Below are positions 7,953 to 63,550 of a stretch of 64,000 bases of DNA, piece by piece. This DNA is from a virus. A model generated the notes under the pieces. It had not been told where the DNA came from and did not search any database. It saw nothing but the letters and a program-made list of their open reading frames with translations. Where the stretch lies: the UHGV virus genome UHGV-0218015. One strand, written 5' to 3'. The position numbers were made by a program, and so were the translations under genes. Positions within the stretch are counted from its first letter, which is position 1. Each line of letters starts with the position of its first letter.

Positions 7953-8001
7953 ACGTGAACCAACACTACAATTGTATTAAACCTTATAAGGATTAAGTAA
8001 A

Positions 8002-9858
8002 ATGGCTAAAGAGTTTATTGACAATCAAAACGACGTTGTGACTGGTGCTGCTGGTGCTGCTGGTGCTGCTGCAGATCCAATTCCGTCTTTCGGTGGCGCG
8101 GGAGCTGCTACTGTGGATAATACCAATGCGGCCAACGCTTTTGGTGGGATGTCTAAAAACATCTCCACTTTCGATAAAGCTTTCGGATACATGTCCTTCG
8201 TGTCCACTGCTTCTCAGTTCACTAGCCTGATTGAGAAGATGGCGGAGAAGAACACATACCTGCGTAACTTCCGTTGGGGTGTCATTGACGGCATCAACTC
8301 TGAAATGGGTTCTGCTGCATACGTGGCTGGTCCGTCCGGCGATAACCATAACGAATGGCTCTACGGCATCCTGTTCTTTGAACATGGCCAGTCCATCCGT
8401 TTCTACGAAATCAACGGTAAAGAAAACTACTACACCCTGGCGCAGCTGTTCAGTCAAGAAGGTGTGATGAACAACATCACTAACCAGATTGCAACTCAAC
8501 ACAATCTGCCGAGCGTACAGTTCATGGTAATGAACTGCGTACCGGAACTGGGTAAAACCATGAACGAAGAATGGGCTAACCAGCTCATGGGCCAGATTGC
8601 ACTGGGTATCTTCGGTCGTCATTCTGGCTACCTGGGCTACCTGAAAATGACCCGTTCTGATCGCTTCACCGCGCAAGTTAGCGTAGTTGAAGAAGGTTCT
8701 GTAACTGACGTTAACGGTTCCGCACAGCGTGCTGACCTGATGGTTGTGGTTGACCATACTCGTACCGGCAACAACGATAATAACCCGACGCTGTTCTCTT
8801 CTGAACGCCTCCAGAATTATCCGAGCGTTGCAGGTGTTGGTTACATCAACCTCCGCCATAAAGGTAAACCTCAGACTCTGACTAACGGTACTCAGGACCT
8901 GCGTCAGCTGGAAGCCGAAGTGGTTGTTTCTCTGATGGATTCTCAATCCTCTGGGGCAATGGCACCTATCGAGCGTCAGCTGATTGAACTGGCCGCGTTC
9001 GCACAAATCGCCACTATCGGCGGCTGGCGTGAACGTTTCATGCAATCGCTGAACAAAACCGATCGTCGCTTCTCCCGCGTTCTGGAGTATGTAGAATGGG
9101 GCAGCGAAAAACCTGACCTGAGCAAAATCGACGGTAACCGTGAAGTTATCGAGAAATGCCTGGACACCTTCGCTAACCCGACTGCGGCTCTGGTGGTGAA
9201 CCATCGTGCAGGTAACGGTATCGGTGGTCTGTCTACTCTCCTGAGTGAAATCGGGATGGGTAACACCAACGCACTGTATACTCTGTTCAACATCCTGGAT
9301 AACATGGCCAGCAACGGCGCGACTAAGTTCAGCACTCGCTTCAAAGCGCTGCTGGGCAAGGACACCAACTTTGAGTGCAAACATGTTGTTATTGCCGGTT
9401 GCCCGACTATCTCTGGTCAGTATTTCAGCAACAGCCAGAAACGTAGCTTCCAGGATATGGACTTGGTTTCCGCTCTGACTAAAGTGGGCGACAACCAGCG
9501 TGATGCGATCGACTACATCAGTGCACAGTCCTACTCTCACCGCTACCTGAATGCGCGTGACCAGCGTCTGTACCTGCTGAAAATGGCTGCGTCCATGTTC
9601 GGTAGCAAACAGCCGCAGGTAACGGGTGAAGCGTCTGACCTGGCGATCAATCCGTTGTTTGGTAAGGCACTGGTGGAATACATCACCGAAAACTGCAACT
9701 TCCAGGTGAACGGTGTTACCGCAGCGAACAGCCTCACTCACTCTGTGTTTGTTAACACGGGTAATGAGAACTTCGCTCTGTCTGGTAGCGGTCCTAACGC
9801 ATTTGGTAGCGATTTCGGTATGTCCTTCGCTGCAACTGACTGGCGTCCGACTTTCTAA
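8002..9858 (+). CDS. abundant 618-aa protein; candidate phage-nucleus shell protein (chimallin-like) or major structural protein
   Basis: extreme codon bias (652-codon stop-free antisense shadow), tandem promoters, strong terminator; Gly/Ala/Phe-rich termini with SFGG/AFGG motifs; sits immediately upstream of the RNAP beta-prime gene; functional call is inference. Confidence 0.55.
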   Translation: MAKEFIDNQNDVVTGAAGAAGAAADPIPSFGGAGAATVDNTNAANAFGGMSKNISTFDKAFGYMSFVSTASQFTSLIEKMAEKNTYLRNFRWGVIDGINSEMGSAAYVAGPSGDNHNEWLYGILFFEHGQSIRFYEINGKENYYTLAQLFSQEGVMNNITNQIATQHNLPSVQFMVMNCVPELGKTMNEEWANQLMGQIALGIFGRHSGYLGYLKMTRSDRFTAQVSVVEEGSVTDVNGSAQRADLMVVVDHTRTGNNDNNPTLFSSERLQNYPSVAGVGYINLRHKGKPQTLTNGTQDLRQLEAEVVVSLMDSQSSGAMAPIERQLIELAAFAQIATIGGWRERFMQSLNKTDRRFSRVLEYVEWGSEKPDLSKIDGNREVIEKCLDTFANPTAALVVNHRAGNGIGGLSTLLSEIGMGNTNALYTLFNILDNMASNGATKFSTRFKALLGKDTNFECKHVVIAGCPTISGQYFSNSQKRSFQDMDLVSALTKVGDNQRDAIDYISAQSYSHRYLNARDQRLYLLKMAASMFGSKQPQVTGEASDLAINPLFGKALVEYITENCNFQVNGVTAANSLTHSVFVNTGNENFALSGSGPNAFGSDFGMSFAATDWRPTF

Positions 9859-9887
9859 TAAGTTGGTAAGTAGTAAGCAGTAGTTGA

Positions 9888-9929
9888 GGGACAGGGGAAA
9901 ACCCCCTGTCCCTTCCCTCTCTTTTTTTG
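9888..9929 (+). terminator. intrinsic terminator
   Basis: gggacagggg aaaa ccccctgtccc followed by T-run. Confidence 0.7.
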
Positions 9930-9942
9930 TTGAGGATTCGGC

Positions 9943-11310
9943 GTGGAACATAAACTAGAATATTACGGGATTTCAGGGCGACTAATTAGTCACGATAAAA
10001 TGCTACGTGACTGTATACAAGAAGCGGAGGAAAAAGGCTACAAACCCCCGATTATTATCAATGACGTTGCTGCAACGATGGATACCATCGAAGCGTCAGA
10101 GATGATTAACCAAATACTTCAAAACCGAATCGTTGATGAAACACTCAACTCGGCTCCTATTTGCAGTCTGACCTGCGAATCACCTATTACCCATCGTTAT
10201 AATCTTGGGTTACGTTGCCCACATTGTGGTCATGTTGTTTCTGAACATCGGATTACGTCCGAAGTTTGGCTACGTGCACCCGATGAGATAGGTAACTTTA
10301 TCAATCCACGTTTTTGGTCTCTCTTTAATGCTTTCTTTGGCTCTAAGCTGAAAAAATTTAATCGTAACAAAGTGACGGTAGAGCGTGGTTCTGATTTGCT
10401 GCTATGGCTAATCGATCCGTACTACCATCCAGAAAAGGACGAAGGAACACGTGCTCGTGTGGTGAAAAGAATACTTGGTGAATACAGGTTCGAACGGGGA
10501 ATTCGAAACTTTATCGACCACCATCGAACCGTCTTTAATATCCTTACGTCCCCAGAAGCCTGGAAGGAGATTTATCCACCGACGAAAAACAACCGTTATG
10601 AGAGTGAACGCGTACGCTTAGAATGGCGTGAGTTCTTTCAGGAACAATCGTTCTCATTCTTTCCAAGACACCTTCCGATTATTTCATCGAAACTGATCGT
10701 TACAGAGGAGCGCCGACAAGGTATCTTTATCGATCCCGTTTACACCAGTGCCATCGATGCAGTAAAAAATGTGGCGTTGTTGTACACGAATGCACGTCGT
10801 ATCGAACCACGATTTATTATTCGTCGTGCGATCAAAGCGAATCGACAACTTGCGTATTTCTATATTGACCATCGTCAGGAAGTGATGGAAGGTAAACCTG
10901 GGTTCTATCGGGCAAAACTCGGGTCAACGCACGTACCGTGGGGCGGACGTGTGACTATCTCTCCTATCTCTGAACCTCACGATGCGTTGAAAGTTATTGC
11001 GCCTTGGCGTTGGTTAGTTCCTTTGGCGAGTGTTCACATTGAGAACAAGTTAGGTCGACGTGACTACACACCTCGACAGTGTGAACGAATTATTGCATTC
11101 GCGGCAATGCAGTATGTACCGTTGGTGCATGAAATTATTAATGAGCTGATTAAAGAATCCCCCGGCGGATTCGGTTTAATGTTGGAAGTTCTACGTAACC
11201 CAACATTGGTTCAGCTTTCTATTCAGACGTTGTTTATCTCAGCGGTACTGACAGATGTAACACAATGTTCTCTGCGTATTTCTGATCGCGTCATCAAAGC
11301 ACCTAATGCT
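9943..11310 (+). CDS. RNA polymerase beta-prime-like subunit, N-terminal part, exon 1
   Basis: GTG start with RBS; Zn-ribbon C..C...CPHCGH; GKPGFYRAKLGSTHVPWGGRVTISP and RNPTLVQLSIQ resemble bacterial beta-prime [23 protein letters not shown] and RAPTLHRLGIQ (from memory); coding sense ends at ...VIKAPNA. Confidence 0.7.
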
Positions 11311-43409: not shown

Positions 43410-44516
43410 ATGTTAGAAAAAACGTTTGAGACAAGCGTTGTCTCTTTCCTCTCCAGACTTCCCATGCTGTTTCGTTCGCGTGCGGAGTCGATGGAGGAAT
43501 TTAACTCAGTGCTCTATAACGAGCACATTACCTTAGTCGAACAAAGCCTGCTGGGTTTAGATTACCTTCCGGGAATTCTGGAGAAAATCCAAATTTTGCT
43601 GGCAGGAAACCAATTAACGGCTATCTCACTGTTAACCGGTGTACCGGATGTTGACATTATCGGTACCCTGGATCAGGTCAGCACACGTCGTAGTGCGCTT
43701 GATAACGCAGTCCGCACCGGTTCCCGCTTAGCAGCGCTTGCAGTCGGCGAATCTGCCCGTTATGGTTTACCATCATACGATAAAATCGGCATTGCAGTCG
43801 GCGAATCTGCCCGACGGGTCGCCCAGGAATCAAAAGGTTCGGTCAGTGGCGGGAAAGGTGAACCGATTAAACTGCTTTTCGATCAAGAAGGGTTGTCCAA
43901 CGGGAAAATGTTCTCAGTAACATTCGAACGTGACGGTAATAAAGTCGAACTCCCAATGCGCCTACGTTTGGATGTGAAATCCTTACCGACCGAACAAATT
44001 GAAACGCTGATTGCGTTCAGTGACCAGACGAAAACATTCTGGGAACGTTGGCTGCGTGCACGTGTTGGTGCGTTGAGTTACGTAAAAGACATCGCGTTCT
44101 GTAACGACCTGGTAGAAGAATATCGTAAGAACCGTTATCGCGATAAGTCCGGCTATTACCGTAAGATGATGGAGAAGAAGAACGGTAACTGGTTATCTGG
44201 TTTGCTGTCTCTGGCACCGTCTATCAATAACGCTTCTTCCGTCATGGTGGTTTCTCAAGACACAATCGACGGCTTGACCGCACAGCTAGGTGGCGAATTC
44301 GACGATTTCAATATCCGTCAACGTGTATTCAAAGACACCCTGACTGTCTACTATGTTGTTGTGGACACCACCTGGAATCGTGTCACTATTTATACCCGTG
44401 GTCAGAATGGCTCTCAGGAACTCGATAAATCTGACTTTAGTAAATCGAAGTCTGGTAGCGCCGATGTGAATAAAATCATCGAAGCGTATCGCTCTGGCGC
44501 TCAGCCAGTTCTTTAA
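43410..44516 (+). CDS. hypothetical protein (368 aa)
   Basis: ORF. Confidence 0.5.
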   Translation: MLEKTFETSVVSFLSRLPMLFRSRAESMEEFNSVLYNEHITLVEQSLLGLDYLPGILEKIQILLAGNQLTAISLLTGVPDVDIIGTLDQVSTRRSALDNAVRTGSRLAALAVGESARYGLPSYDKIGIAVGESARRVAQESKGSVSGGKGEPIKLLFDQEGLSNGKMFSVTFERDGNKVELPMRLRLDVKSLPTEQIETLIAFSDQTKTFWERWLRARVGALSYVKDIAFCNDLVEEYRKNRYRDKSGYYRKMMEKKNGNWLSGLLSLAPSINNASSVMVVSQDTIDGLTAQLGGEFDDFNIRQRVFKDTLTVYYVVVDTTWNRVTIYTRGQNGSQELDKSDFSKSKSGSADVNKIIEAYRSGAQPVL

Positions 44517-44526
44517 GGGGTAAGGC

Positions 44527-45462
44527 ATGGCAATCCCGAATATGCTCGCTATGTTGTTGCCGAGCTTTGAAGCAACAAACTTGAAAAACCAGCTCTCATC
44601 AAACTGTGATGCGATTGGTGAACAACTTTTACCGCGTTTCCAGTCTCTGCAAGAGCTGGTAGCGTCGAAAGAAGGCAAGCCGTTCAAATCGAAAACGGTG
44701 CAGGACATGTCGGATGATTTGGTTAAGTACCTGCGGAATTCCGGTCTGGAAGCCAAAGGTCTCCGTAATCCTTCGATGCTGGAATACATCGTTGCCTCGA
44801 TGGAAAACACGCTACAATTGCGTTCTTTCTTAGACCAATGTATTACACGTGACATTGGTAAAGCGTTAGTCACGTCTTCAATGACGTTTAATAAATTAAC
44901 GGTGCTCAGACTGCTTGACCTGATTGATTTCTTTACAGGCTACAGTGCCACCTTACTTAACTACGTAACCGCAGAAGAAATAGCCGCCGTAGAAGGCTCG
45001 AATATTGAAGTAAAAGGCGTCGGTCCGAATGACCTTCAATACCTCAATACTCGTTCTATTTCTTACTGCATTGCTGTCCGTGTGCTGGCAACGCCGCTGA
45101 ATAAACTGAAAGCGGATTATGCGGAAATTCCTGAAGCGATCTTTAACGACGAAACTTACGGTGAGTTGGCGCAACAGTTCGGTTCGAGCTCCGTTGACCC
45201 ACTGGGAATGAGCAGTGTACCGTTCCCAATCTCACTGATACTGCGCGTACGTTTAAATATCGCTGAACGGCAGATGGATAAGTACGACGAGTGTGTAGAA
45301 GCGGCGAAAGCGGCGGAACTGCGTATCTTACTTTACAAAAAGCAAGTCGCAGAAGGTAAGGGTGATGCCCACATTGAGAAACTGATTGAAATCAGTGAAA
45401 AGCATCTGATGGAACTCAAGCACAAGCGTGAGCGTCTTGAAAAGAAATACGGTTTAGCGTAA
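44527..45462 (+). CDS. hypothetical protein (311 aa)
   Basis: ORF with AAGGGG RBS. Confidence 0.5.
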   Translation: MAIPNMLAMLLPSFEATNLKNQLSSNCDAIGEQLLPRFQSLQELVASKEGKPFKSKTVQDMSDDLVKYLRNSGLEAKGLRNPSMLEYIVASMENTLQLRSFLDQCITRDIGKALVTSSMTFNKLTVLRLLDLIDFFTGYSATLLNYVTAEEIAAVEGSNIEVKGVGPNDLQYLNTRSISYCIAVRVLATPLNKLKADYAEIPEAIFNDETYGELAQQFGSSSVDPLGMSSVPFPISLILRVRLNIAERQMDKYDECVEAAKAAELRILLYKKQVAEGKGDAHIEKLIEISEKHLMELKHKRERLEKKYGLA

Positions 45463-45479
45463 ACCGTTAGGAGAGGCGA

Positions 45480-46040
45480 ATGTTTGAGCACGATAGTCCA
45501 GAATTTAGTGTTGCTGTAGAGCGCATTAAATCCTACATGTCGATTTTATCGAAGAACCCAATCGACACACACGATGACGAAGTTATTCACAAAACATTGG
45601 AAGCGGCTGCCGTTCTTTTACCGTATTTTCGTCTGATGGCTGCTGACTCATTGCAGCAGGTATTATATGACGAATATCCGCAGGTCGGATTTACCTTTAA
45701 TACGTTTTATAACGAAAGCGTAGCCTTCCTGCTGGATGGTAAGCGACGTAATGTGACGTTAGGGCAGTGGTCGACTTTGCTGTCGTCGTATATGAACGAT
45801 GTTCGTAACACGAAGAATGTTGAACAGACGGGTGGATTAGGCTCACGTCTACTAGCTGCTGCGTTTGGTCGCCGAGGTACTGTACGTAATATGGGCTCCG
45901 CTCACCAATCCATTGAGTGTAGCAAACGTCTTTTATCTTATGCAGACCATGAACTGCTGGCACGCTGGATGACACGCCCGAACGGGTTGTCCGACATGAT
46001 CTCGTCGTTAGCAGTGTTTTTGAAAATCGCACGTCCCTAA
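45480..46040 (+). CDS. hypothetical protein (186 aa)
   Basis: ORF with GGAGAGG RBS. Confidence 0.5.
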   Translation: MFEHDSPEFSVAVERIKSYMSILSKNPIDTHDDEVIHKTLEAAAVLLPYFRLMAADSLQQVLYDEYPQVGFTFNTFYNESVAFLLDGKRRNVTLGQWSTLLSSYMNDVRNTKNVEQTGGLGSRLLAAAFGRRGTVRNMGSAHQSIECSKRLLSYADHELLARWMTRPNGLSDMISSLAVFLKIARP

Positions 46041-46099
46041 GGGGGCCCCTCATTCTAGGGGCGTGTAATTGGGTTATATAACCAAAGGAAATAAACGAA

Positions 46100-47371
46100 A
46101 TGGCAAATTTCGCAAAAACTCGCGCCGCTCGTGAATCGATGGAAGCGGCCGATGAAGTAATCGACGGTATCAGCAACGTTGAACCGGCAGAAGAGAACCT
46201 GGACGTCCAACTTGCGGACGTTGCATCTATCGACGGTCAGCTCGATCAGCTGGAAACCGACGGTGAAACCCTGGCTGCCGATACCGAGCGTACTGAAGAC
46301 GCTATCGAACAGGCGGAAGAAGCCGTTGCTAACGGTGAAGAAATGCCGGAAGAAGCGGTTGCCCTGCACGAAGTGGCACAGGAATCCATCGCACGTCGTT
46401 GGTGCCTGGAACGTACTAAACTGGCTCGCGAATCCTATCGCCGTGGTCGTGGTATGACTGCTGCTGCCCAGGAAGGTTGGAAAGAAACCCTGAAAGATCT
46501 TTACGATCGTTTCATTCAGTTCTGTAAAGAAGTGATTGCGAAGATCAAAGACCTGAAACTGAAATATTTCAACGTCGGTAAGACTGCACAGAAACGTGCG
46601 AAGAAATATCAGGAAATGCTGCGTAAGCTGGGCAAACAGAAGAAAGATGAGATCTCTGGTGGGTTTATCACCAAGCTGTCTATCGAAGGTAAATTCGATG
46701 CTGCTGGCTCTATCGCTATTGCGAAAGAAGTTACCGCTGGTAAAGCTAAAGGTTCCATCAGTGCTCTGGAAAAACAGGCCGGTGAAGCTGTAACTGCTGT
46801 GAGCAAGGGTGACGACGATTCCTTCAAAGCAATGCGCGGCGATCAGCCTGTAGACCTGTTCGGTAAAGCAGCGTCTAAACTGCATTCTCTGCCGAATTTT
46901 GAAAAAGGCGATGCGTCTAAATTGCTGGCACTGCCAGGCAACGCGTACATTCAGGCTGGTACTAAAGAACTGGCTGGCGGCCACAAGTTCACCGCAATTG
47001 CTTTCATGAGCACCGGTGACGCTTCTGACGATAAAGACGTGAAAACTCCGTCTGTTTCTGAAATGGCTGGTGCTGCTTCTGCTCTGGAAGCAATCGGTAA
47101 AGGCTTCGAAGCCGTACTGAAAGATTTCCGTGCTTACGATTCTGAAATCGTGAAACTGCAACAGGCTGCTGAAAAAGCAACCAAAGAGCTGAATAACGAG
47201 AAAGACGAAAGCAAATGGGATGGCCTGCGTAACGCACGTCAAGCTGCTGATTGGTCTGTTAAGAACTACCAGACCCTGAACCGCGCCGTTAGCTATGTTG
47301 CTAACACCGTTATTAGCGGTCTGAATGGTTACCTGGGTGCTGGTATCGGTGCTTACGAAAAATCTAAATAA
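46100..47371 (+). CDS. abundant paralog A (423 aa); putative processed virion-internal protein
   Basis: extreme codon bias (395-codon antisense shadow); acidic N-terminal region with ARES, AQES motifs; shares RKLGKQKKDEISGGFI and C-terminal GYLGAGIGAYEKSK with downstream paralog. Confidence 0.6.
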   Translation: MANFAKTRAARESMEAADEVIDGISNVEPAEENLDVQLADVASIDGQLDQLETDGETLAADTERTEDAIEQAEEAVANGEEMPEEAVALHEVAQESIARRWCLERTKLARESYRRGRGMTAAAQEGWKETLKDLYDRFIQFCKEVIAKIKDLKLKYFNVGKTAQKRAKKYQEMLRKLGKQKKDEISGGFITKLSIEGKFDAAGSIAIAKEVTAGKAKGSISALEKQAGEAVTAVSKGDDDSFKAMRGDQPVDLFGKAASKLHSLPNFEKGDASKLLALPGNAYIQAGTKELAGGHKFTAIAFMSTGDASDDKDVKTPSVSEMAGAASALEAIGKGFEAVLKDFRAYDSEIVKLQQAAEKATKELNNEKDESKWDGLRNARQAADWSVKNYQTLNRAVSYVANTVISGLNGYLGAGIGAYEKSK

Positions 47372-47453
47372 TAATTTAGATTCGTAGTTCCGTACAGTTC
47401 TTGAAATAAATCATCAGGGGAACAACGCGTTCCCCTTAGAGGAAAAGCTTAAA

Positions 47454-48719
47454 ATGGCGAATTTCTACAAAAACAAAATTGCTCGTGAGTCTATGGAGTC
47501 TACCGCTACTGTAGTTCCAGACGGCATCGAACTGCCAGCAGAATCCGTAGAAGGCACTCTGGCCGATATCGAGCATGACACCAAACCGATCGAAGCCCTG
47601 GACGCTGACGCTGAACTGCTGGCAGAAGACGGCGACGAAACTGACGCACAGCTGGATGTTCTGGATGAAGCTCAGGCCGCTGCTGACGGTGAAGGTGCTG
47701 GCGAAGACGGCGAAGACCCGATGGACGCCGAAGAAGATATGCCGGACGACGCTGCGACCGCGCTGGACGTTGCTCAGGAATCTATCCGTTCTCGTTGGAA
47801 CTTCGATCACCGTTCTTCCGTTGCACACGAATCCTACGGTTCTCGTAACCGTCGCCAGGTGGCTCGTGAATCCCTGTGGGAAGACATTAAAGCCTTCCTG
47901 GGTCGTATCTGGGAATGGCTGAAAGAACAAGGCCGTAAGATCAAAGATCGTTGGCTGAAATTCTCCAACCAGGGTAAATCTATCCAGGCGCGTGCTAAGA
48001 AATACGATGAAGTTATTCGTAAGCTGGGCAAACAGAAGAAAGATGAGATCTCTGGTGGGTTTATCAAGTCTCTGTCTATCGATGGCAAGTTCGTCGGCGA
48101 TAATATTCCGAAACTGAAAGGTATCCTTAGCCAGGTTTCCACATTCTATAGCACTAAGATGCCTTCCATGGCCGCTAAAGCTGCTGAAATGGTTTCCGAT
48201 GTTACCAAAGGTAATGGTGCTAAAGTTGAAAAACTGAAAGCCGACTTTACCGAACTGGCCGAAAAAGACAGTCAACAAAACTTCAAACTCGGTAACATGG
48301 CGTTGAAAACCGAGTATGACAACGAAGGCGGTTTCAGCTCCACCTTTGTTGCAGCAGAAAATAGCGTTGAAACTAGTGTGAAAACTCCGTCTGCTGGCGA
48401 ATTGGCTAAAATCAACGCCTTCTTCAATGAAGTGGGCAAACAGATTGAGAAGAACGTTCAGGATTATCGTAAAGTCGAAAGCGCGCGGAAAACTTTTGAA
48501 GATAATATCGATAAGCTCCTGAAAGAAGTCGATAAAGTTAAGATCGACGAAAAACCGGAACTGACCGAAGCTGTACGTGCTGCCCGTCGTTACATCACCA
48601 GCATTAACCAGGCCCTGTCTCTGGGTGAGAAAGTTATTGCTTCTACTCAGAAACATCTGGCTGGCGGTCTGAACGGCTATATCTCCGCAGGTATCGCTGC
48701 TTACGAAAAATCTAAATAA
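47454..48719 (+). CDS. abundant paralog B (421 aa); putative processed virion-internal protein
   Basis: paralog of 46100..47371 (MANF.K...ARESMES, AQESIRSRW, RKLGKQKKDEISGGFI, AGIAAYEKSK); 436-codon antisense shadow; strong terminator. Confidence 0.6.
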   Translation: MANFYKNKIARESMESTATVVPDGIELPAESVEGTLADIEHDTKPIEALDADAELLAEDGDETDAQLDVLDEAQAAADGEGAGEDGEDPMDAEEDMPDDAATALDVAQESIRSRWNFDHRSSVAHESYGSRNRRQVARESLWEDIKAFLGRIWEWLKEQGRKIKDRWLKFSNQGKSIQARAKKYDEVIRKLGKQKKDEISGGFIKSLSIDGKFVGDNIPKLKGILSQVSTFYSTKMPSMAAKAAEMVSDVTKGNGAKVEKLKADFTELAEKDSQQNFKLGNMALKTEYDNEGGFSSTFVAAENSVETSVKTPSAGELAKINAFFNEVGKQIEKNVQDYRKVESARKTFEDNIDKLLKEVDKVKIDEKPELTEAVRAARRYITSINQALSLGEKVIASTQKHLAGGLNGYISAGIAAYEKSK

Positions 48720-48737
48720 TCTCTGATTGTTTAGTAA

Positions 48738-48785
48738 GAGAACCACCCTATTACAGGGTGGTTCTCTCTTTTCTTTTTTTTTTTC
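48738..48785 (+). terminator. intrinsic terminator (strong)
   Basis: gagaaccaccct attac agggtggttctc followed by about 19-nt T-run. Confidence 0.75.
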
Positions 48786-48796
48786 GATTAAAAATA

Positions 48797-48821
48797 ATTT
48801 CAGATATATATTACCTAGGTG
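48797..48821 (+). promoter_or_regulatory. promoter-like motif TATATATTACCTAGGTG (class 2)
   Basis: atttcagatatatattacctaggtg; identical 25-mer at 57053..57077; contains TATATTAC. Confidence 0.5.
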
Positions 48822-48874
48822 GGATTATACAATAATCTCTTTACGACTTGTTTATTACGTTTAGGAGAAATATC

Positions 48875-49516
48875 ATGAGCCGCATTAATTTAACTGATTT
48901 TGTTGATGGTGTTGTGTCTATGGAGAAAGGTGTCGTTACGATGGTGGCACCGAACAGTAAAGTTGTTACTTTAAATCCGGTAGAAGTGATTTCTATTTCT
49001 ACCTGGTTGCGCTTACTTTCTGGTAAGAAACCTAAAGAGCAAACGAAGGGTGGCTTATTAGTCGGTACACGCGAGTTTGTTTTCAAAGCCATAAACCAAG
49101 ATAAACTGGACAGCTTTGCTAACGAACTGAACGCCAAACTTAAAACCAACGGGATCGGGAGTGCCGAATACGACGGAGTAACGTACCATGCATTTCTTGA
49201 TAGCCACGTAGCGTTGCGTGAAAAAGAAAATGGAATGTACGATTCCGTTTGTTTCTTTCATTTAATTGCACCAACAGAGAACGATGCTGTGTATAATACC
49301 ATTGAAAAATCGGCGGAAGCTGTTATGGAAACGGTATCAGAACTTGTAGAAGGGATGAAAAGAATCCCACGTGTGTTGAAAGTTACTGATGGTGCTATCG
49401 ATTGTTTTAAATTATTACCCCTAATAGCCAGTAAAGAATTCGAAGAAGAGAACACGTTCGGACTATTTGAACTTAGCCTTTCGGAAGCAGTTGTTACTTT
49501 CTTTGAAAACTTGTAA
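48875..49516 (+). CDS. hypothetical protein
   Basis: ORF 48848..49516; start moved to ATG 48875 with TAGGAG RBS. Confidence 0.5.
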   Translation: MSRINLTDFVDGVVSMEKGVVTMVAPNSKVVTLNPVEVISISTWLRLLSGKKPKEQTKGGLLVGTREFVFKAINQDKLDSFANELNAKLKTNGIGSAEYDGVTYHAFLDSHVALREKENGMYDSVCFFHLIAPTENDAVYNTIEKSAEAVMETVSELVEGMKRIPRVLKVTDGAIDCFKLLPLIASKEFEEENTFGLFELSLSEAVVTFFENL

Positions 49517-49518
49517 GT

Positions 49519-49550
49519 TAAAGCCCTCTACGGAGGGCTTTATTTTTTTC
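49519..49550 (+). terminator. intrinsic terminator
   Basis: aaagccctc tacg gagggcttt followed by T-run. Confidence 0.65.
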
Positions 49551-49569
49551 GACCTTTAGGAGAATAGAA

Positions 49570-50121
49570 ATGAACAAATTTAATATCTTAGACGCTGAAG
49601 TCGTATCTGAAACCAGCCTACAGCAGGAAATTTTCCGCATTCAGTTTGGCGATAAAACCCTTATCGTCCCACGCCCGGTAATGATTGGACTGGCTATTTT
49701 TATTAACTGTGTGCATTGTAATGGTTCTCAACTCTCCACGCTCACTTACGGCAATTACGAATTCTATATTCCAGAGCACCTGGAATATAATCGTTTCATC
49801 GCTTTACGCCCGTTCTACAAGTTTATGTTAGACGCAGGTTATTCTACACTGACGAAAACATACATTCGTGATTATTCGAAGCTGGAAACGTTTTACCGTC
49901 GCCGCAGTTATCGCGTTCCTGAACCTATTGACGGTTTTCAAACCCGTGTTGTATTACTTAAACCGCTAGAAAAAGAACTGGCTTGCTATAAACTTGATAT
50001 TGAGCAGAAGTTACTGCGTGAGGATTTGTTGAATCTATACAACCAACTTTCAGTTGTACCGAAAGCCACAGTAGAAAACATTCTACCTGATTACGGAATT
50101 AGACAATACCAGGAAGGTTAA
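49570..50121 (+). CDS. hypothetical protein (183 aa)
   Basis: ORF with TAGGAG RBS. Confidence 0.5.
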   Translation: MNKFNILDAEVVSETSLQQEIFRIQFGDKTLIVPRPVMIGLAIFINCVHCNGSQLSTLTYGNYEFYIPEHLEYNRFIALRPFYKFMLDAGYSTLTKTYIRDYSKLETFYRRRSYRVPEPIDGFQTRVVLLKPLEKELACYKLDIEQKLLREDLLNLYNQLSVVPKATVENILPDYGIRQYQEG

Positions 50122-61255: not shown

Positions 61256-63550
61256 ATGAAAGATACCCGAATCTCTAATCTGGAGAAACTCGTACAAGCT
61301 GGTAACTCGCTGGTACAAAGCGTCATTAGTAACAACACTGCTGGCGAAATGTGGAACACCATCGTTGCTGGTGAATCTGTACGTAGCAACACTAAAGTTT
61401 TTGGTACCCTGCGTGACGACGCTGCACAGCACTACGCAAACGCGTTTGCTGGCGGTAAGAAAATGTCCCACGCTGCGGAAGTTGCTTCTGCAATGATTCT
61501 GGGTGCTGCTGGTCACGGTATGGACTTGCAAGAAAAAGTAGCTCAAGAATACGCTAAACCGGAATTCCATAGCCGTTTTAACCTGGACGTTGCGATTCCT
61601 GGCTCCCAAGCTGGTAACGGCGACTGGGGCAAAGAGCGTATGGTTGTCGCTCAGGAATACTACACCAACAAAGACTACGACAAAAACCTGGGTCTGACCT
61701 GGACGCTGAACGTACGTGCTCTGGAAACCCAGTCTCGTTTTGCTGAGACTCTGTTCCCGACCATCACTGTTGACACTAACGATGTTGGTATTACCGTACG
61801 TACCAAAGTGACCACCGTTTCTCGCGGTGTAATGAACGCACTGCTGAGCAAAGACGTTGTTGAAGATCATCGTCGTAACTTACATGAAGCGCTGACTGAC
61901 CACACTGTTCTCCAGGACGAAGCGATCAACATCGTTCCTTACGTAATGGAAACCGGTGAAAACGCTGAATACTTCGTAAGCGAAGATCTGGTACCGAACG
62001 AATCTGTTCGTCTGGGTCGTGTACCTCCGTACCCGACTAACTACCTGAGCTTTGCTAAAGACACTCTGAACCTGTTCCAGCTGTCCGCGCATCCGGGTAT
62101 CGTAATCGAAGGTTACGACGAAACTGATGAAATCGCGCCGGGCTGTGCTCTGGGCAGCCTGCTGATTTCCGTACGTAAAGCGGCTGAAGATGCAAAAGCA
62201 GGTAAATTCATTAAACTGCACGTTCGCGACATGCAGTTCGCAACCTTCCAGCGCCCTGCTGAAGGTGATGGCCGTGAGCTGGTACTGCAATTCCGTCGTA
62301 CTGCGTTCTCTCTGAACGCGAAAACTACCGACTGGAAAGGCGAAGCTATTCCGGCTCTGAAAACACTGGAACAGAACTCCTACACCCTGCGTTATGTGAT
62401 CACCATCAACATGTCTCTGTTCACTACCGGTCAGTTCGGTGGTAAAGTTGACATCGCTGGTCACAAACTGGAAATCGAAGGTCTGTACGACGCTACCGGT
62501 AACAAAGTTGATATTAAGACTGGTACCGGCAAAGCTGTCCTGGAAAATCTGAAACTTGAACTGATCGGCTGGCGTTTCGATGGTACTCGTACCAACGAAA
62601 ACCGTCGTACCCAGGGTCTGCTGCTCGACCCAATCTGGGAACAAGAAAACTACAAGCTGCAATACGGTTCTCCGATTCTGACCAAGTCTCCGGTTGGCGT
62701 TGAATACGACGATACCGAGCGTCTGGACGACCTGATTTCCGCAGTTAACATCCGTAACGAACAGTTGGCTATCACTCAGACACTGTCTTACACCGAAGCG
62801 GTACGTAACGCTGCTGCAAGCATGATCACTCCGTGGGACAAACCGGCCATTCGTGGTCTGGGCCGTCACTGGGTTGCTCCGTGGTTCAAAGAGTCTGACT
62901 ACAACGTTGATAAAGTTGTACAGTCCCTGGATACCAAAGAAGCACTGATCAACGCTCGTCAGGGTCTGGTACAGCGTATCGGTAATCAGGTAACTCAGGC
63001 TATCCAGGAATCTCGCTTCATTCCTGCGCTGCGTCTGTACACTGCTGATCCGGACATTCTGCCGAAGGTTGTTATTGCAACCGACGAACCGACTGCATCC
63101 ATGCTGCTGCTGGTACAGGGCGACCAACGTCTGCTGGGCGATCGCTACGAATACGAAGTGATCACCACCAACGATGACCGCTGGCGTATCTACAACGCAG
63201 CTGACGGTTCCTGGACTCGTCGTCTGCAATGGTTCCTGAAAGTTCCGACTGCGGACGATGGTTCCTACAACGTGCTGAACTGGGGTAACCACTTCTGGTC
63301 TCCGATCATGGTTACTAACATCAACATTCAGCGTAACGGCTCTACCTCTAAAGAGCTGGCCGTACAGCCGCGTAACGCGCACATCTGCCACTGCCCGATC
63401 ACTGGTCTGATCTGGGTTAAAGGCATCACCAAACTGGTTGAAGAAAAACTGGCTTACAATGTTTCTGTTGAACAGAACGGTCAGAAACAAACCGAAGGTG
63501 GTGTAGCAGGTAACGTTGCTGGCGAAGGCAAAGCTGCTGCCGGTAAGTAA
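61256..63550 (+). CDS. abundant 764-aa protein; putative major capsid protein
   Basis: extreme codon bias (536-codon antisense shadow), strong terminator; size fits phiKZ-type major capsid proteins; N-terminal AGE/GES motifs; assignment by size and expression only. Confidence 0.5.
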   Translation: MKDTRISNLEKLVQAGNSLVQSVISNNTAGEMWNTIVAGESVRSNTKVFGTLRDDAAQHYANAFAGGKKMSHAAEVASAMILGAAGHGMDLQEKVAQEYAKPEFHSRFNLDVAIPGSQAGNGDWGKERMVVAQEYYTNKDYDKNLGLTWTLNVRALETQSRFAETLFPTITVDTNDVGITVRTKVTTVSRGVMNALLSKDVVEDHRRNLHEALTDHTVLQDEAINIVPYVMETGENAEYFVSEDLVPNESVRLGRVPPYPTNYLSFAKDTLNLFQLSAHPGIVIEGYDETDEIAPGCALGSLLISVRKAAEDAKAGKFIKLHVRDMQFATFQRPAEGDGRELVLQFRRTAFSLNAKTTDWKGEAIPALKTLEQNSYTLRYVITINMSLFTTGQFGGKVDIAGHKLEIEGLYDATGNKVDIKTGTGKAVLENLKLELIGWRFDGTRTNENRRTQGLLLDPIWEQENYKLQYGSPILTKSPVGVEYDDTERLDDLISAVNIRNEQLAITQTLSYTEAVRNAAASMITPWDKPAIRGLGRHWVAPWFKESDYNVDKVVQSLDTKEALINARQGLVQRIGNQVTQAIQESRFIPALRLYTADPDILPKVVIATDEPTASMLLLVQGDQRLLGDRYEYEVITTNDDRWRIYNAADGSWTRRLQWFLKVPTADDGSYNVLNWGNHFWSPIMVTNINIQRNGSTSKELAVQPRNAHICHCPITGLIWVKGITKLVEEKLAYNVSVEQNGQKQTEGGVAGNVAGEGKAAAGK

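What the first reader, a model, noticed from the sequence alone, without database searches (positions are those of the whole stretch)
46100..48719. Tandem pair of highly expressed paralogs with repeated A-x-E-S motifs
Two adjacent genes encode 423- and 421-aa paralogs sharing N-terminus MANF.K...ARESMES, a central block RKLGKQKKDEISGGFI and C-terminus GYxxAGIxAYEKSK, while the middle regions diverged. Both have extreme codon bias (antisense shadows of 395 and 436 codons). Their acidic N-terminal regions contain repeated A-(R/Q/H)-E-S motifs (ARES, AQES, AHES), which resemble the S/A/G-x-E cleavage sites of jumbo-phage prohead proteases. This suggests abundant, proteolytically processed head-internal (inner-body or ejection) proteins made as a duplicated pair.
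Basis: partly seen in the sequence, partly recalled or inferred. Interest (0 to 1): 0.55.

Follow-up and report, generated by a model that had tools for sequence, protein, structure and literature searches.

The report
Jumbo-phage internal head protein pair

Summary
ORFs 46100-47371 (423 aa, IP1) and 47454-48719 (421 aa, IP2) are 35% identical paralogs, and both match Pfam PF12699 (phiKZ internal head proteins; E 1.6e-72 and 1.4e-60). By identity (68% and 60%) and synteny they are orthologs of SPN3US gp53 and gp54. Those are ejection proteins present at more than 600 copies each per head and cut by the S80 prohead protease gp245 after A-x-E.

All five mass-spectrometry-mapped SPN3US sites are present here, and four sites per protein are near-invariant in 116 homologs: E12, E95, E111, E125 in IP1 and E12, E109, E126, E139 in IP2. 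Cleavage would remove acidic propeptides (pI about 4) and leave basic 31-32 kDa domains (pI about 9.4).

The codon bias is real: Nc is about 37, there are no TTA/CTA/TCA codons, and only the capsid gene is more biased. That explains the antisense "shadow" ORFs, which are not genes.

The exact proteins already sit in GenBank as "hypothetical protein". Minor extras:
- a 49-nt gene-conversion tract behind the shared central block
- an invariant element upstream of IP1
- a covarying hairpin before IP2
- a strong terminator after IP2

What PF12699 proteins do after ejection remains unknown.

The parts
46041..46099 (+). Sequence-invariant element between the gp52-like gene and IP1. It contains GGGGGCCCC...AGGGGCGTGTA, the 12-nt palindrome GGTTATATAACC (46072-46083) and the ribosome-binding site AAGGA.
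   Evidence: Nearly invariant in 10 phage genomes whose IP1 proteins are only 56-88% identical. It is unique in the window. There are no compensatory changes and the fold is not significant (z = -0.89), so recognition looks sequence-specific rather than structural.
46100..47371 (+). IP1: 423-aa precursor of an internal head (ejection) protein, the ortholog of SPN3US gp53.
   Evidence: PF12699 E = 1.6e-72. PHROG 2497 E = 5e-148. 68% identical to gp53. Syntenic with SPN3US. Nc 36.7 and CAI rank 2 of 51.
46100..46474 (+). IP1 acidic propeptide, aa 1-125 (13.7 kDa, pI 4.2, net charge -19). Conserved A-x-E sites: ARE-12 (46127-46135), AQE-95 (46376-46384), ARE-111 (46424-46432), AQE-125 (46466-46474).
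   Evidence: Sites listed. They align with SPN3US gp53 ARE-12, AQE-95 and AQE-125, mapped by mass spectrometry (PMC10052503). Kept in 48-55 of 55 gp53-type and 61 of 61 gp54-type homologs. Charge and pI.
46475..47368 (+). IP1 predicted mature domain, aa 126-423 (32.2 kDa, pI 9.3), starting GWKETLKDLYDR. Long helices plus a small beta unit.
   Evidence: The gp53 maturation peptide (E)GWKETLKDLFER is published. AlphaFold2 model: pLDDT 82, pTM 0.79. The fold is shared with jumbo-phage internal head proteins in BFVD, TM up to 0.83.
46622..46669 (+). IP1 copy of the gene-conversion tract (RKLGKQKKDEISGGFI). Its twin lies at 48018-48065 in IP2.
   Evidence: 16 of 16 codons are identical, including rare GGG and AAG. 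The exact run is 49 nt, against 14-23 nt in four relatives. In the 88%-identical relative, IP1 reads RQLGKQEKDKVSGGFI there.
47416..47436 (+). Hairpin GGGGAAC-loop-GTTCCCC, 2 nt upstream of the IP2 ribosome-binding site AGAGGA.
   Evidence: z = -2.56. The stem is kept in 10 genomes, with compensatory changes in 4 of 8 pairs. No T-run follows it on the + strand (sequence).
47454..48719 (+). IP2: 421-aa precursor of an internal head (ejection) protein, the ortholog of SPN3US gp54.
   Evidence: PF12699 E = 1.4e-60. PHROG 2497 E = 3.5e-123. 60% identical to gp54. Nc 37.7 and CAI rank 3 of 51.
47454..47870 (+). IP2 acidic propeptide, aa 1-139 (15.1 kDa, pI 4.05, net charge -27). Conserved A-x-E sites: ARE-12 (47481-47489), AQE-109 (47772-47780), AHE-126 (47823-47831), ARE-139 (47862-47870).
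   Evidence: Sites listed. AHE-126 and ARE-139 align with SPN3US gp54 AQE-124 and ARE-137, mapped by mass spectrometry. Conservation.
47871..48716 (+). IP2 predicted mature domain, aa 140-421 (31.4 kDa, pI 9.4), starting SLWEDIK.
   Evidence: The gp54 maturation peptide (E)SLWDDIK is published. pI and mass.
48737..48785 (+). Intrinsic terminator closing the two-gene unit: a 13-bp stem (48737-48767) followed by a T-run.
   Evidence: Terminator scan. Folding energy -23.2 kcal/mol, z = -6.36. Present in all 10 genomes, with compensatory changes in 8 of 10 pairs.
46055..47242 (-). Antisense shadow ORF (395 codons) over IP1. Not a gene.
   Evidence: In codon register with IP1. It exists because IP1 has no TTA, CTA or TCA codons. 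No Pfam or PHROG match.
47436..48746 (-). Antisense shadow ORF (436 codons) over IP2. Not a gene.
   Evidence: Same reasoning as for the IP1 shadow. No PHROG match and only sub-threshold Pfam matches.
43410..46040 (+). Upstream head-protein genes of the same module, orthologs of SPN3US gp50 (43410-44516), gp51 (44527-45462) and gp52 (45480-46040; the last resembles the phiKZ gp91 vertex-binding protein).
   Evidence: Synteny. PHROGs 3239, 3187 and 8199. PF25618 E = 6.5e-07. The gp50 ortholog has VAQE-S where SPN3US gp50 has VATES, matching the published ATE-127 motif.

Best explanation
The two genes encode the two major internal head proteins (PF12699, 'ejection' or inner-body proteins) of an SPN3US-like giant phage of enterobacteria.

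Proposed mechanism, with the basis for each step:
1. Expression. The pair forms one unit: a conserved upstream element, IP1, a hairpin, IP2, then a strong terminator. It is translated at very high level late in infection. The signals and codon bias are shown here; the expression level is inferred.
2. Precursor. Each ~46 kDa precursor has three parts (shown from sequence). The 12-residue basic leader MANF...ARE co-evolves between the two paralogs. An acidic, mostly helical propeptide follows. The third part is a basic, helix-rich domain of about 290 residues.
3. Assembly. The precursors assemble under the capsid shell of the prohead. This is inferred from the T=1 inner shell of gp53/gp54 seen in protease-deficient SPN3US capsids.
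4. Cleavage. The S80 prohead protease is encoded outside this window. It would cut after Glu at four conserved A-x-E sites: E12, E95, E111, E125 in IP1 and E12, E109, E126, E139 in IP2. The sites are shown and conserved here; cleavage itself is inferred from SPN3US mass spectrometry.
5. Fate. The acidic fragments are largely cleared. The basic 31-32 kDa domains stay with the packaged DNA and enter the host with it. This is inferred from SPN3US, phiKZ gp93 and Goslar gp58.

What the domains do biochemically inside the host is unknown for the whole family.
For: Family and orthology:
- PF12699 and PHROG 2497 matches far above threshold.
- IP1 is 68% identical to gp53 and IP2 60% to gp54, against 34-37% across the paralogs.
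- The gene order gp50-gp51-gp52-gp53-gp54, with DHFR a few genes downstream, is the same as in SPN3US, phiEaH2 and six further phages.
- Nearly all of the 64 related phage records carry two copies.

Cleavage sites:
- The five published gp245 sites (PMC10052503 Table 2) fall on invariant alignment columns.
- The four sites are kept in nearly all of 116 full-length homologs, while other A-x-E occurrences are not.
- A-x-E-S is enriched only in the propeptides.
- The predicted neo-N-termini, GWKETLK and SLWEDIK, match the published semi-tryptic peptides.

Protease: an S80 protease (PF20034, E 5.7e-83) that is 81% identical to gp245 keeps its own VAQE-S autocleavage site. It occurs in the same Shigella, Salmonella and E. 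coli assemblies that carry the exact IP1 protein; the longest contig is 227,147 bp for both.

Abundance proxy: Nc about 37 and CAI ranks 2 and 3, just behind the major capsid gene.

Charge: the propeptides are acidic and the mature domains basic.

Fold: the AlphaFold2 model is confident (pLDDT 82) and matches 101 jumbo-phage internal or virion proteins in BFVD.

Expression signals are conserved or covary across 10 genomes.
Against: Nothing was measured in this phage itself. Virion location, copy number, cleavage and ejection all rest on orthology at 60-68% identity.

- The protease gene is not in the 64-kb window, and its presence on the same contig as IP1 was not read directly.
- ARE-111 of IP1 has no published cleavage in gp53; only the equivalent site in gp54 was detected.
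- The term 'ejection protein' is partly an inference even for SPN3US, and recent cryo-EM studies failed to see an ordered inner body in phiKZ or Goslar.
- Codon bias is only a proxy for expression.
Confidence: 0.88

Rival explanations
1. The proteins are mainly scaffold or core proteins. They would build the internal T=1 shell on which the T=27 capsid assembles, and their later presence in the head and ejection would be incidental.
For: In protease-deficient SPN3US 'mottled' capsids, gp53 and gp54 form an ordered T=1 inner shell that disappears on maturation (PMC7552025). Without gp243, gp53 and gp54 are not incorporated and heads are unstable (PMC5694885). The propeptides are acidic and helical, like scaffolding proteins.
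Against: The mature domains are retained in virions at very high copy rather than expelled. The homologs phiKZ gp93/95/97 and Goslar gp58 are seen to enter the host cell. This rival is compatible with the main explanation as an additional role.
Confidence: 0.35
2. Each precursor is a two-in-one polyprotein. The fragment between the first two cuts (IP1 13-95, IP2 13-109) would stay bound to the inner capsid surface as a fibre-like cement between capsomers. Only the C-terminal domain would be free cargo.
For: In the phiKZ capsid structure, gp93 residues 14-84 start exactly after a cleavage site and bridge neighbouring hexamers on the inner surface, while the helix-rich domain is cut off (PMC11297242). 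SPN3US gp53 propeptide peptides remain detectable in heads. The E12 and E95/E109 sites bounding this fragment are the best-conserved ones.
Against: No detectable sequence similarity between this fragment and a solved phiKZ chain was obtained. The fragment is strongly acidic (pI 4.1). AlphaFold2 predicts it as long helices packed on the body, not extended arms. Most SPN3US propeptide material is reported as cleared.
Confidence: 0.25
3. After ejection, the basic mature domains act on host membrane. They would organise or coat the early-phage-infection vesicle that shelters the incoming genome.
For: Injected phiKZ gp93 co-purifies with host membrane and lipid-metabolism proteins and co-localises with a lipid-stained vesicle (bioRxiv 10.1101/2024.03.24.586471). 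The weak Foldseek hits of the model cluster on TolC-like channels and ClyA-family alpha-pore-forming toxins.
Confidence: 0.12
4. The long antisense ORFs (395 and 436 codons) are real genes that overlap the sense genes.
For: Their length alone.
Against: They are in exact codon register with the sense genes and are fully explained by the absence of TTA, CTA and TCA codons. The same effect is seen over the capsid gene (555 of 764 codons) and one other biased gene. No family matches were found.
Confidence: 0.01

Closest known systems
Salmonella phage SPN3US gp53 and gp54 ('paralog family A', high-abundance ejection proteins)
   Same: - A tandem pair at the same place in the same gene order.
- 68% and 60% identity.
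- Same lengths, and a similar paralog divergence (34-35%).
- The same MANF...ARES leader, and the same five mapped A-x-E cleavage sites.
- An acidic propeptide and a basic mature part.

   Different: - A different, unnamed phage lineage with a genome of about 225 kb. The closest named phage is Erwinia phage Asesino, at 73%.
- The 15-residue leaders are not identical here (11 of 15), whereas they are 15 of 15 in SPN3US.
- This lineage has a 49-nt gene-conversion tract in the central block that SPN3US lacks.
- Nothing has been measured experimentally in this phage.
phiKZ inner-body proteins gp93, gp95, gp97, gp162 and Goslar gp53-gp58 (Pfam PF12699)
   Same: - The same Pfam family and the same predicted helix-rich fold.
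- High copy number in the head.
- N-terminal processing after Glu by an S80 protease.
- Clustered paralogs.

   Different: - Sequence identity is too low for direct BLAST detection.
- phiKZ has 7-8 paralogs at about 100-200 copies each and Goslar has six, whereas this clade has exactly two.
- The phiKZ protease accepts S/A/G-x-E, while the SPN3US-type sites are strictly A-x-E.
Phage T4 internal proteins IPI, IPII and IPIII with their capsid-targeting sequences
   Same: The logic is the same. These are small basic proteins packed with the DNA, carrying a short conserved N-terminal leader that targets them to the prohead and is removed after Glu by the prohead protease, and they are ejected with the DNA. 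This comparison rests on established knowledge and on the comparison drawn in PMC5694885.
   Different: There is no sequence relationship: no T4 internal-protein family appeared in the Pfam or PHROG scans. The propeptides here are far longer (125-139 residues with four cuts), the proteins are larger, and the copy number is higher.

Membership tests
Pfam PF12699 / PHROG 2497 (phiKZ-like internal head proteins) | Full-length match to the family profile above the curated threshold | tested here: met
   245.3 and 206 bits against a cut-off of 27, covering profile positions 2-387 of 387. PHROG 2497 E = 5e-148 and 3.5e-123.
Pfam PF12699 / PHROG 2497 (phiKZ-like internal head proteins) | Helix-rich fold shared with other family members | tested here: met
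   AlphaFold2 model with pLDDT 82 and pTM 0.79. 101 BFVD matches at E <= 1e-3, all jumbo-phage internal or virion proteins, with TM up to 0.83. No solved structure of the fold exists: the best PDB Foldseek hit has E = 0.07.
Pfam PF12699 / PHROG 2497 (phiKZ-like internal head proteins) | Located inside the capsid and delivered into the host | not testable with these tools
   This needs virion proteomics and imaging. It is known for SPN3US gp53/54, phiKZ gp93/95/97 and Goslar gp58.
SPN3US gp53/gp54 orthologs (paralog family A) | Each gene is closer to its own SPN3US counterpart than to the other paralog | tested here: met
   IP1-gp53 68% and IP2-gp54 60%, against 34-37% across the paralogs. The 116 homologs split cleanly into 55 gp53-type and 61 gp54-type.
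SPN3US gp53/gp54 orthologs (paralog family A) | Conserved genomic position: after the gp50-gp52 head genes, with DHFR a few genes downstream | tested here: met
SPN3US gp53/gp54 orthologs (paralog family A) | A-x-E cleavage motifs at the positions mapped by mass spectrometry | tested here: met
   gp53 ARE-12, AQE-95 and AQE-125 and gp54 AQE-124 and ARE-137 align to IP1 E12, E95, E125 and IP2 E126, E139. They are conserved in 116 homologs. Actual cleavage was not tested.
SPN3US gp53/gp54 orthologs (paralog family A) | A cognate S80 prohead protease encoded by the same genome | tested here: inconclusive
   It is not in the 64-kb window: tblastn with gp245 found nothing below E = 2.4, as SPN3US gene order predicts. 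An S80 protease (PF20034, E 5.7e-83) that is 81% identical to gp245 occurs in the same assemblies, and its longest contig is the same 227,147 bp as for the exact IP1 protein.
SPN3US gp53/gp54 orthologs (paralog family A) | Very high copy number per virion | not testable with these tools
   Only a proxy is available: the second and third strongest codon adaptation in the window, after the capsid gene.
ClyA-family alpha-pore-forming toxins (considered because of weak fold hits) | Significant structural similarity to the helical bundle with a hydrophobic beta-tongue | tested here: not met
   [not shown]
ESCRT-III / Snf7 (considered because of a weak profile hit) | Significant sequence match to the Snf7 core | tested here: inconclusive
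   [not shown]

The most novel reading that the evidence does not exclude
The basic 31-32 kDa domains, released from their acidic propeptides, would not be passive packing material. Delivered in more than a thousand copies with the DNA, they would be the structural organisers of the early-infection vesicle that hides the incoming genome. The two paralogs would be kept at fixed stoichiometry by a dedicated cis-regulatory unit: the invariant upstream element plus the covarying hairpin.
Probability: 0.12. Interest if true: 0.7.

Novelty: new member of a known kind. Interest (0 to 1): 0.2.

Why it matters
[quoted passage not shown] It does not open a new question.

Its practical value has three parts:
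- About 185 and 7 near-identical GenBank and metagenome entries, now labelled 'hypothetical protein' in Shigella, Salmonella and E. coli assemblies, can be annotated as processed internal head proteins of a roughly 225-kb phage.
- The comparative set fixes four cleavage sites per protein. It points to ARE-111 of the gp53 type as a site not yet seen by mass spectrometry.
- The conserved expression signals and the co-evolving leaders give testable handles on how the two paralogs are made and targeted together.

Tried and rejected
3. The upstream 59-nt element as a general late promoter. Rejected, because it occurs only once in the 64-kb window.
4. The upstream element as an RNA structure. Not supported: z = -0.89 and no compensatory changes. 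There is also no Rfam family in 45400-49600 above gathering score.
5. Solved structures of the family. Neither a single-sequence nor a profile search gave a credible hit.
6. Protease, gp243 or gp244 homologs in the window: none found.
7. Direct proof that the S80 protease and IP1 share a contig. The cluster representative P0293 gave a 141-kb contig with only +/-3 kb read.
8. The 651-aa gene at 7993-9951(-) as chimallin. No Pfam, PHROG or PDB support was found, and the literature names a different SPN3US gene.
9. The antisense ORFs as genes: rejected.
Full report
**1. The observation**

The region holds two same-strand ORFs, 46100-47371 (423 aa, here IP1) and 47454-48719 (421 aa, IP2). BLASTP aligns them end to end at 35% identity, E = 8e-56. 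The shared N-terminus (MANF..ARESME), central block (RKLGKQKKDEISGGFI) and C-terminus (GY..AGI.AYEKSK) are as described. The only correction is that 'ARESMES' applies to IP2 alone.

The antisense ORFs of 395 and 436 codons are present and lie in exact codon register with the sense genes.

**2. Codon bias and the antisense shadows**

- Neither gene contains a TTA, CTA or TCA codon, the three codons that read as stops on the opposite strand.
- The window's other genes use these codons for 25%, 7% and 14% of Leu, Leu and Ser respectively. The probability of avoiding them, given each amino-acid sequence, is about 1e-7 per gene.
- Nc is 36.7 and 37.7. Among the 54 ORFs called, only the major capsid gene (61256-63550, Nc 33.1; PF25620 and PHROG 3231) is more biased.
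- With the capsid gene as the sole reference, CAI is 0.658 and 0.630, ranks 2 and 3 of 51, against a median of 0.324.
- Long stop-free antisense runs occur only over the four most biased large genes.
- The antisense ORFs match no protein family.

The shadows are therefore a by-product of codon bias, and the bias points to very high expression.

**3. Identity**

- Both proteins match Pfam PF12699, 'phiKZ-like phage internal head proteins', at E = 1.6e-72 and 1.4e-60 over the whole model. They also match PHROG 2497, 'internal head protein'.
- The DNA around them is about 75% identical to SPN3US-like Salmonella phages and Erwinia jumbo phages.
- The gene order is the SPN3US order: two virion-protein genes on the minus strand, then gp50, gp51, gp52, gp53 and gp54, with dihydrofolate reductase a few genes downstream.
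- IP1 is 68% identical to SPN3US gp53 and IP2 60% to gp54, while cross-paralog identities are 34-37%.
- Nearly all of the 64 related phage records carry two copies, so the duplication predates this clade.
- A profile search of 1.84 billion representative proteins finds 697 family members at E <= 0.001, nearly all 400-470 aa long.

**4. What is known about the orthologs**

*SPN3US*
- gp53 and gp54 ('paralog family A') are, with the capsid protein, the most abundant head proteins, conservatively more than 600 copies each (PMC5694885).
- They form a T=1 inner shell in protease-deficient capsids and are retained, rearranged, in mature heads (PMC7552025).
- The prohead protease gp245 cuts after A-x-E, with a preference for Val at P4 and Ser at P1'. 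The mapped sites are gp53 ARE-12, AQE-95 and AQE-125 (maturation) and gp54 AQE-124 and ARE-137 (maturation) (PMC10052503 Table 2).

*phiKZ and Goslar*
- PF12699 proteins of phiKZ and Goslar are injected with the DNA and associate with the early-infection vesicle.
- phiKZ gp93 residues 14-84 remain on the inner capsid surface.
- As of 2026 the role of the family is called unsolved.

**5. The cleavage motifs here**

IP1 carries ARE-12, AQE-95, ARE-111 and AQE-125. IP2 carries ARE-12, AQE-109, AHE-126 and ARE-139.

- In a six-sequence alignment these columns are invariant, and they coincide with all five published sites.
- The residues after the two maturation sites (GWKETLKDLYDR and SLWEDIK) match the published semi-tryptic peptides (E)GWKETLKDLFER and (E)SLWDDIK.
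- Across 116 full-length homologs the four sites are kept in 48-55 of 55 gp53-type and 61 of 61 gp54-type sequences. The other A-x-E occurrences in the window proteins are mostly unconserved; two exceptions confined to the gp54 type are noted in section 10. One caveat: the gp54-type set is dominated by close relatives.
- A-x-E-S is enriched in the propeptides (P = 4.5e-4 and < 5e-5 by shuffling) and absent from the mature parts. Plain A-x-E is only about two-fold enriched.

Positional conservation, not motif count, is therefore the strong evidence.

**6. Properties of the products**

- Cleavage at the maturation sites would remove acidic propeptides of 13.7 and 15.1 kDa (pI 4.2 and 4.05; net charge -19 and -27).
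- It would leave basic domains of 32.2 and 31.4 kDa (pI 9.3 and 9.4).
- The 12-residue leaders are basic.
- An AlphaFold2 model of IP1 built on a 41-sequence alignment is confident (pLDDT 82, pTM 0.79). It shows long helices (34-77, 84-100, 119-175, 319-366, 371-417) and a beta unit (276-315). Low confidence at residues 15-29 and 111-113 lies next to sites E12 and E111.
- The model matches 101 predicted jumbo-phage internal or virion proteins but no solved structure by Foldseek.

**7. The protease**

SPN3US gp245, gp243 and gp244 have no homolog in the window, as their distant position in SPN3US predicts.

The exact IP1 and IP2 sequences are in GenBank as EFY2245052.1 and EFY2245051.1, 'hypothetical protein [Shigella flexneri]'. 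They also occur on 220-227-kb contigs from many Salmonella, Shigella and E. coli assemblies and on metagenome scaffolds.

The same assemblies hold an S80 protease (P0361). It matches PF20034 at E 5.7e-83, is 81% identical to gp245, keeps the VAQE-S autocleavage site, and has the same longest contig of 227,147 bp. That the protease and IP1 sit on one contig is inferred. It was not read directly.

**8. Expression unit**

- Upstream of IP1, positions 46041-46099 are nearly invariant in 10 genomes whose coding DNA has diverged to about 75% identity.
  - The element is unique in the window.
  - It shows no covariation or significant folding.
  - It includes the palindrome GGTTATATAACC at 46072-46083.
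- Between the genes, a hairpin at 47416-47436 sits 2 nt before the invariant AGAGGA ribosome-binding site. Its stem is kept through compensatory changes in 4 of 8 pairs (z = -2.56).
- After IP2 there is a strong intrinsic terminator at 48737-48767 plus a T-run (z = -6.36). It is conserved, with compensatory changes in 8 of 10 pairs.
- No sigma-70-like promoter is present near the genes, as expected for phages that use their own RNA polymerases.

**9. Concerted evolution**

The central block is identical at all 16 codons, including rare GGG and AAG, and forms a 49-nt exact repeat at 46622-46669 and 48018-48065. In the 88%-identical relative, IP1 reads RQLGKQEKDKVSGGFI there while IP2 keeps RRLGKQKKDEISGGFI. 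The longest exact runs in four other genomes are 14-23 nt. This indicates a recent IP2-to-IP1 micro-conversion in this lineage.

The leaders also co-vary within genomes. Identity at seven variable leader positions sums to 41 across nine genomes, against 27.4 for permuted partners (P = 0.0014). The genomes are not phylogenetically independent, so this P value is indicative only.

**10. Verdict**

The feature is a new, unstudied member of a well-described kind. The family, the tandem pair, the abundance and the A-x-E processing are all published for SPN3US, and standard profile annotation names the proteins immediately.

The leftover open question is what PF12699 domains do after ejection. This window does not advance it, and my one structural lead (a membrane-active fold) did not hold up.

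Two A-x-E motifs conserved only in the gp54 type (AGE-84 and AEE-94, in 56-58 of 61 sequences) lie in the acidic insert and were not examined further.

Noticed in passing
window 46622-46669 and 48018-48065: A 49-nt exact repeat between the two paralogs, including rare codons. It is absent from the 88%-identical relative and from SPN3US, phiEaH2 and another relative. It looks like a recent short gene conversion from IP2 into IP1, and it is the reason the 'central block' looks perfectly conserved.
   Followed up: yes
window 46041-46099: The stretch upstream of IP1 is almost invariant in 10 phage genomes and is much better conserved than the flanking coding DNA. It contains GGGGGCCCC...AGGGGCGTGTA and the palindrome GGTTATATAACC (46072-46083). 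It is unique in the window and shows no sign of RNA-structure covariation, so it may be a gene-specific promoter or operator.
   Followed up: partly
window 47416-47436: A hairpin directly before the IP2 ribosome-binding site. Its stem sequence differs in nearly every lineage but stays complementary (4 of 8 pairs with compensatory changes). No T-run follows it, so it is not a classical terminator. It may be an mRNA-stability, processing or translational-coupling element.
   Followed up: partly
window 46100-46144 and 47454-47498; loci L001, L002, L007-L012: The short N-terminal leaders of the two paralogs resemble each other more within a genome than between genomes (41 against 27.4 identities, P = 0.0014). 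That suggests co-evolution with a shared partner or repeated conversion. SPN3US, with 15 of 15 identical residues, is the extreme case.
   Followed up: partly
window 47357-47368 and 48705-48716: Both proteins end in A-Y-E-K-S-K, an A-x-E motif three residues from the C-terminus. It is kept in all 61 gp54-type and 24 of 55 gp53-type homologs. C-terminal trimming of KSK is conceivable. No such cleavage site appears in the published SPN3US cleavage-site table.
   Followed up: no
window 48848-49516: An ORF of 213-222 aa sits right after the terminator. It has no Pfam or PHROG match and low GC3 (0.38). It is present in some otherwise near-identical genomes (L014-L016) but is replaced by a 58-59-aa ORF in others (L003, L013). 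This looks like a variable accessory-gene slot.
   Followed up: partly
window 7993-9951 (- strand): A 651-aa gene with strong codon bias (Nc 39.5 and a 620-codon antisense shadow) and locally raised GC. It has no Pfam, PHROG or PDB match. It is at most 38.6% identical to its counterparts in phages whose neighbouring proteins are 68-84% identical. It appears to be a highly expressed, fast-evolving gene of unknown role.
   Followed up: partly
whole window; loci L003-L005, L013-L016: The window's phage, or near-identical relatives, appears as 220-227-kb contigs in many Salmonella, Shigella and E. coli isolate assemblies and in metagenome scaffolds, with its proteins labelled 'hypothetical protein'. 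One protease variant is on 867 contigs. Possible causes are a carrier state, a broad host range or recurrent contamination; none was examined.
   Followed up: no
[not shown]
   Followed up: no
IP propeptides (profile positions 9-85): The family profile weakly matches ESCRT-III protein Snf7 (E = 0.0085, 18.5 bits) over the acidic helical propeptide. The match is probably compositional.
   Followed up: partly
window 43410-44516: The gp50 ortholog has VAQE-S at the alignment position where SPN3US gp50 has VATES, which matches the published ATE-127 cleavage motif. Another protease substrate therefore sits in the same gene module. phiEaH2 carries a long insertion just before this site and lacks the motif in the alignment.
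   Followed up: partly
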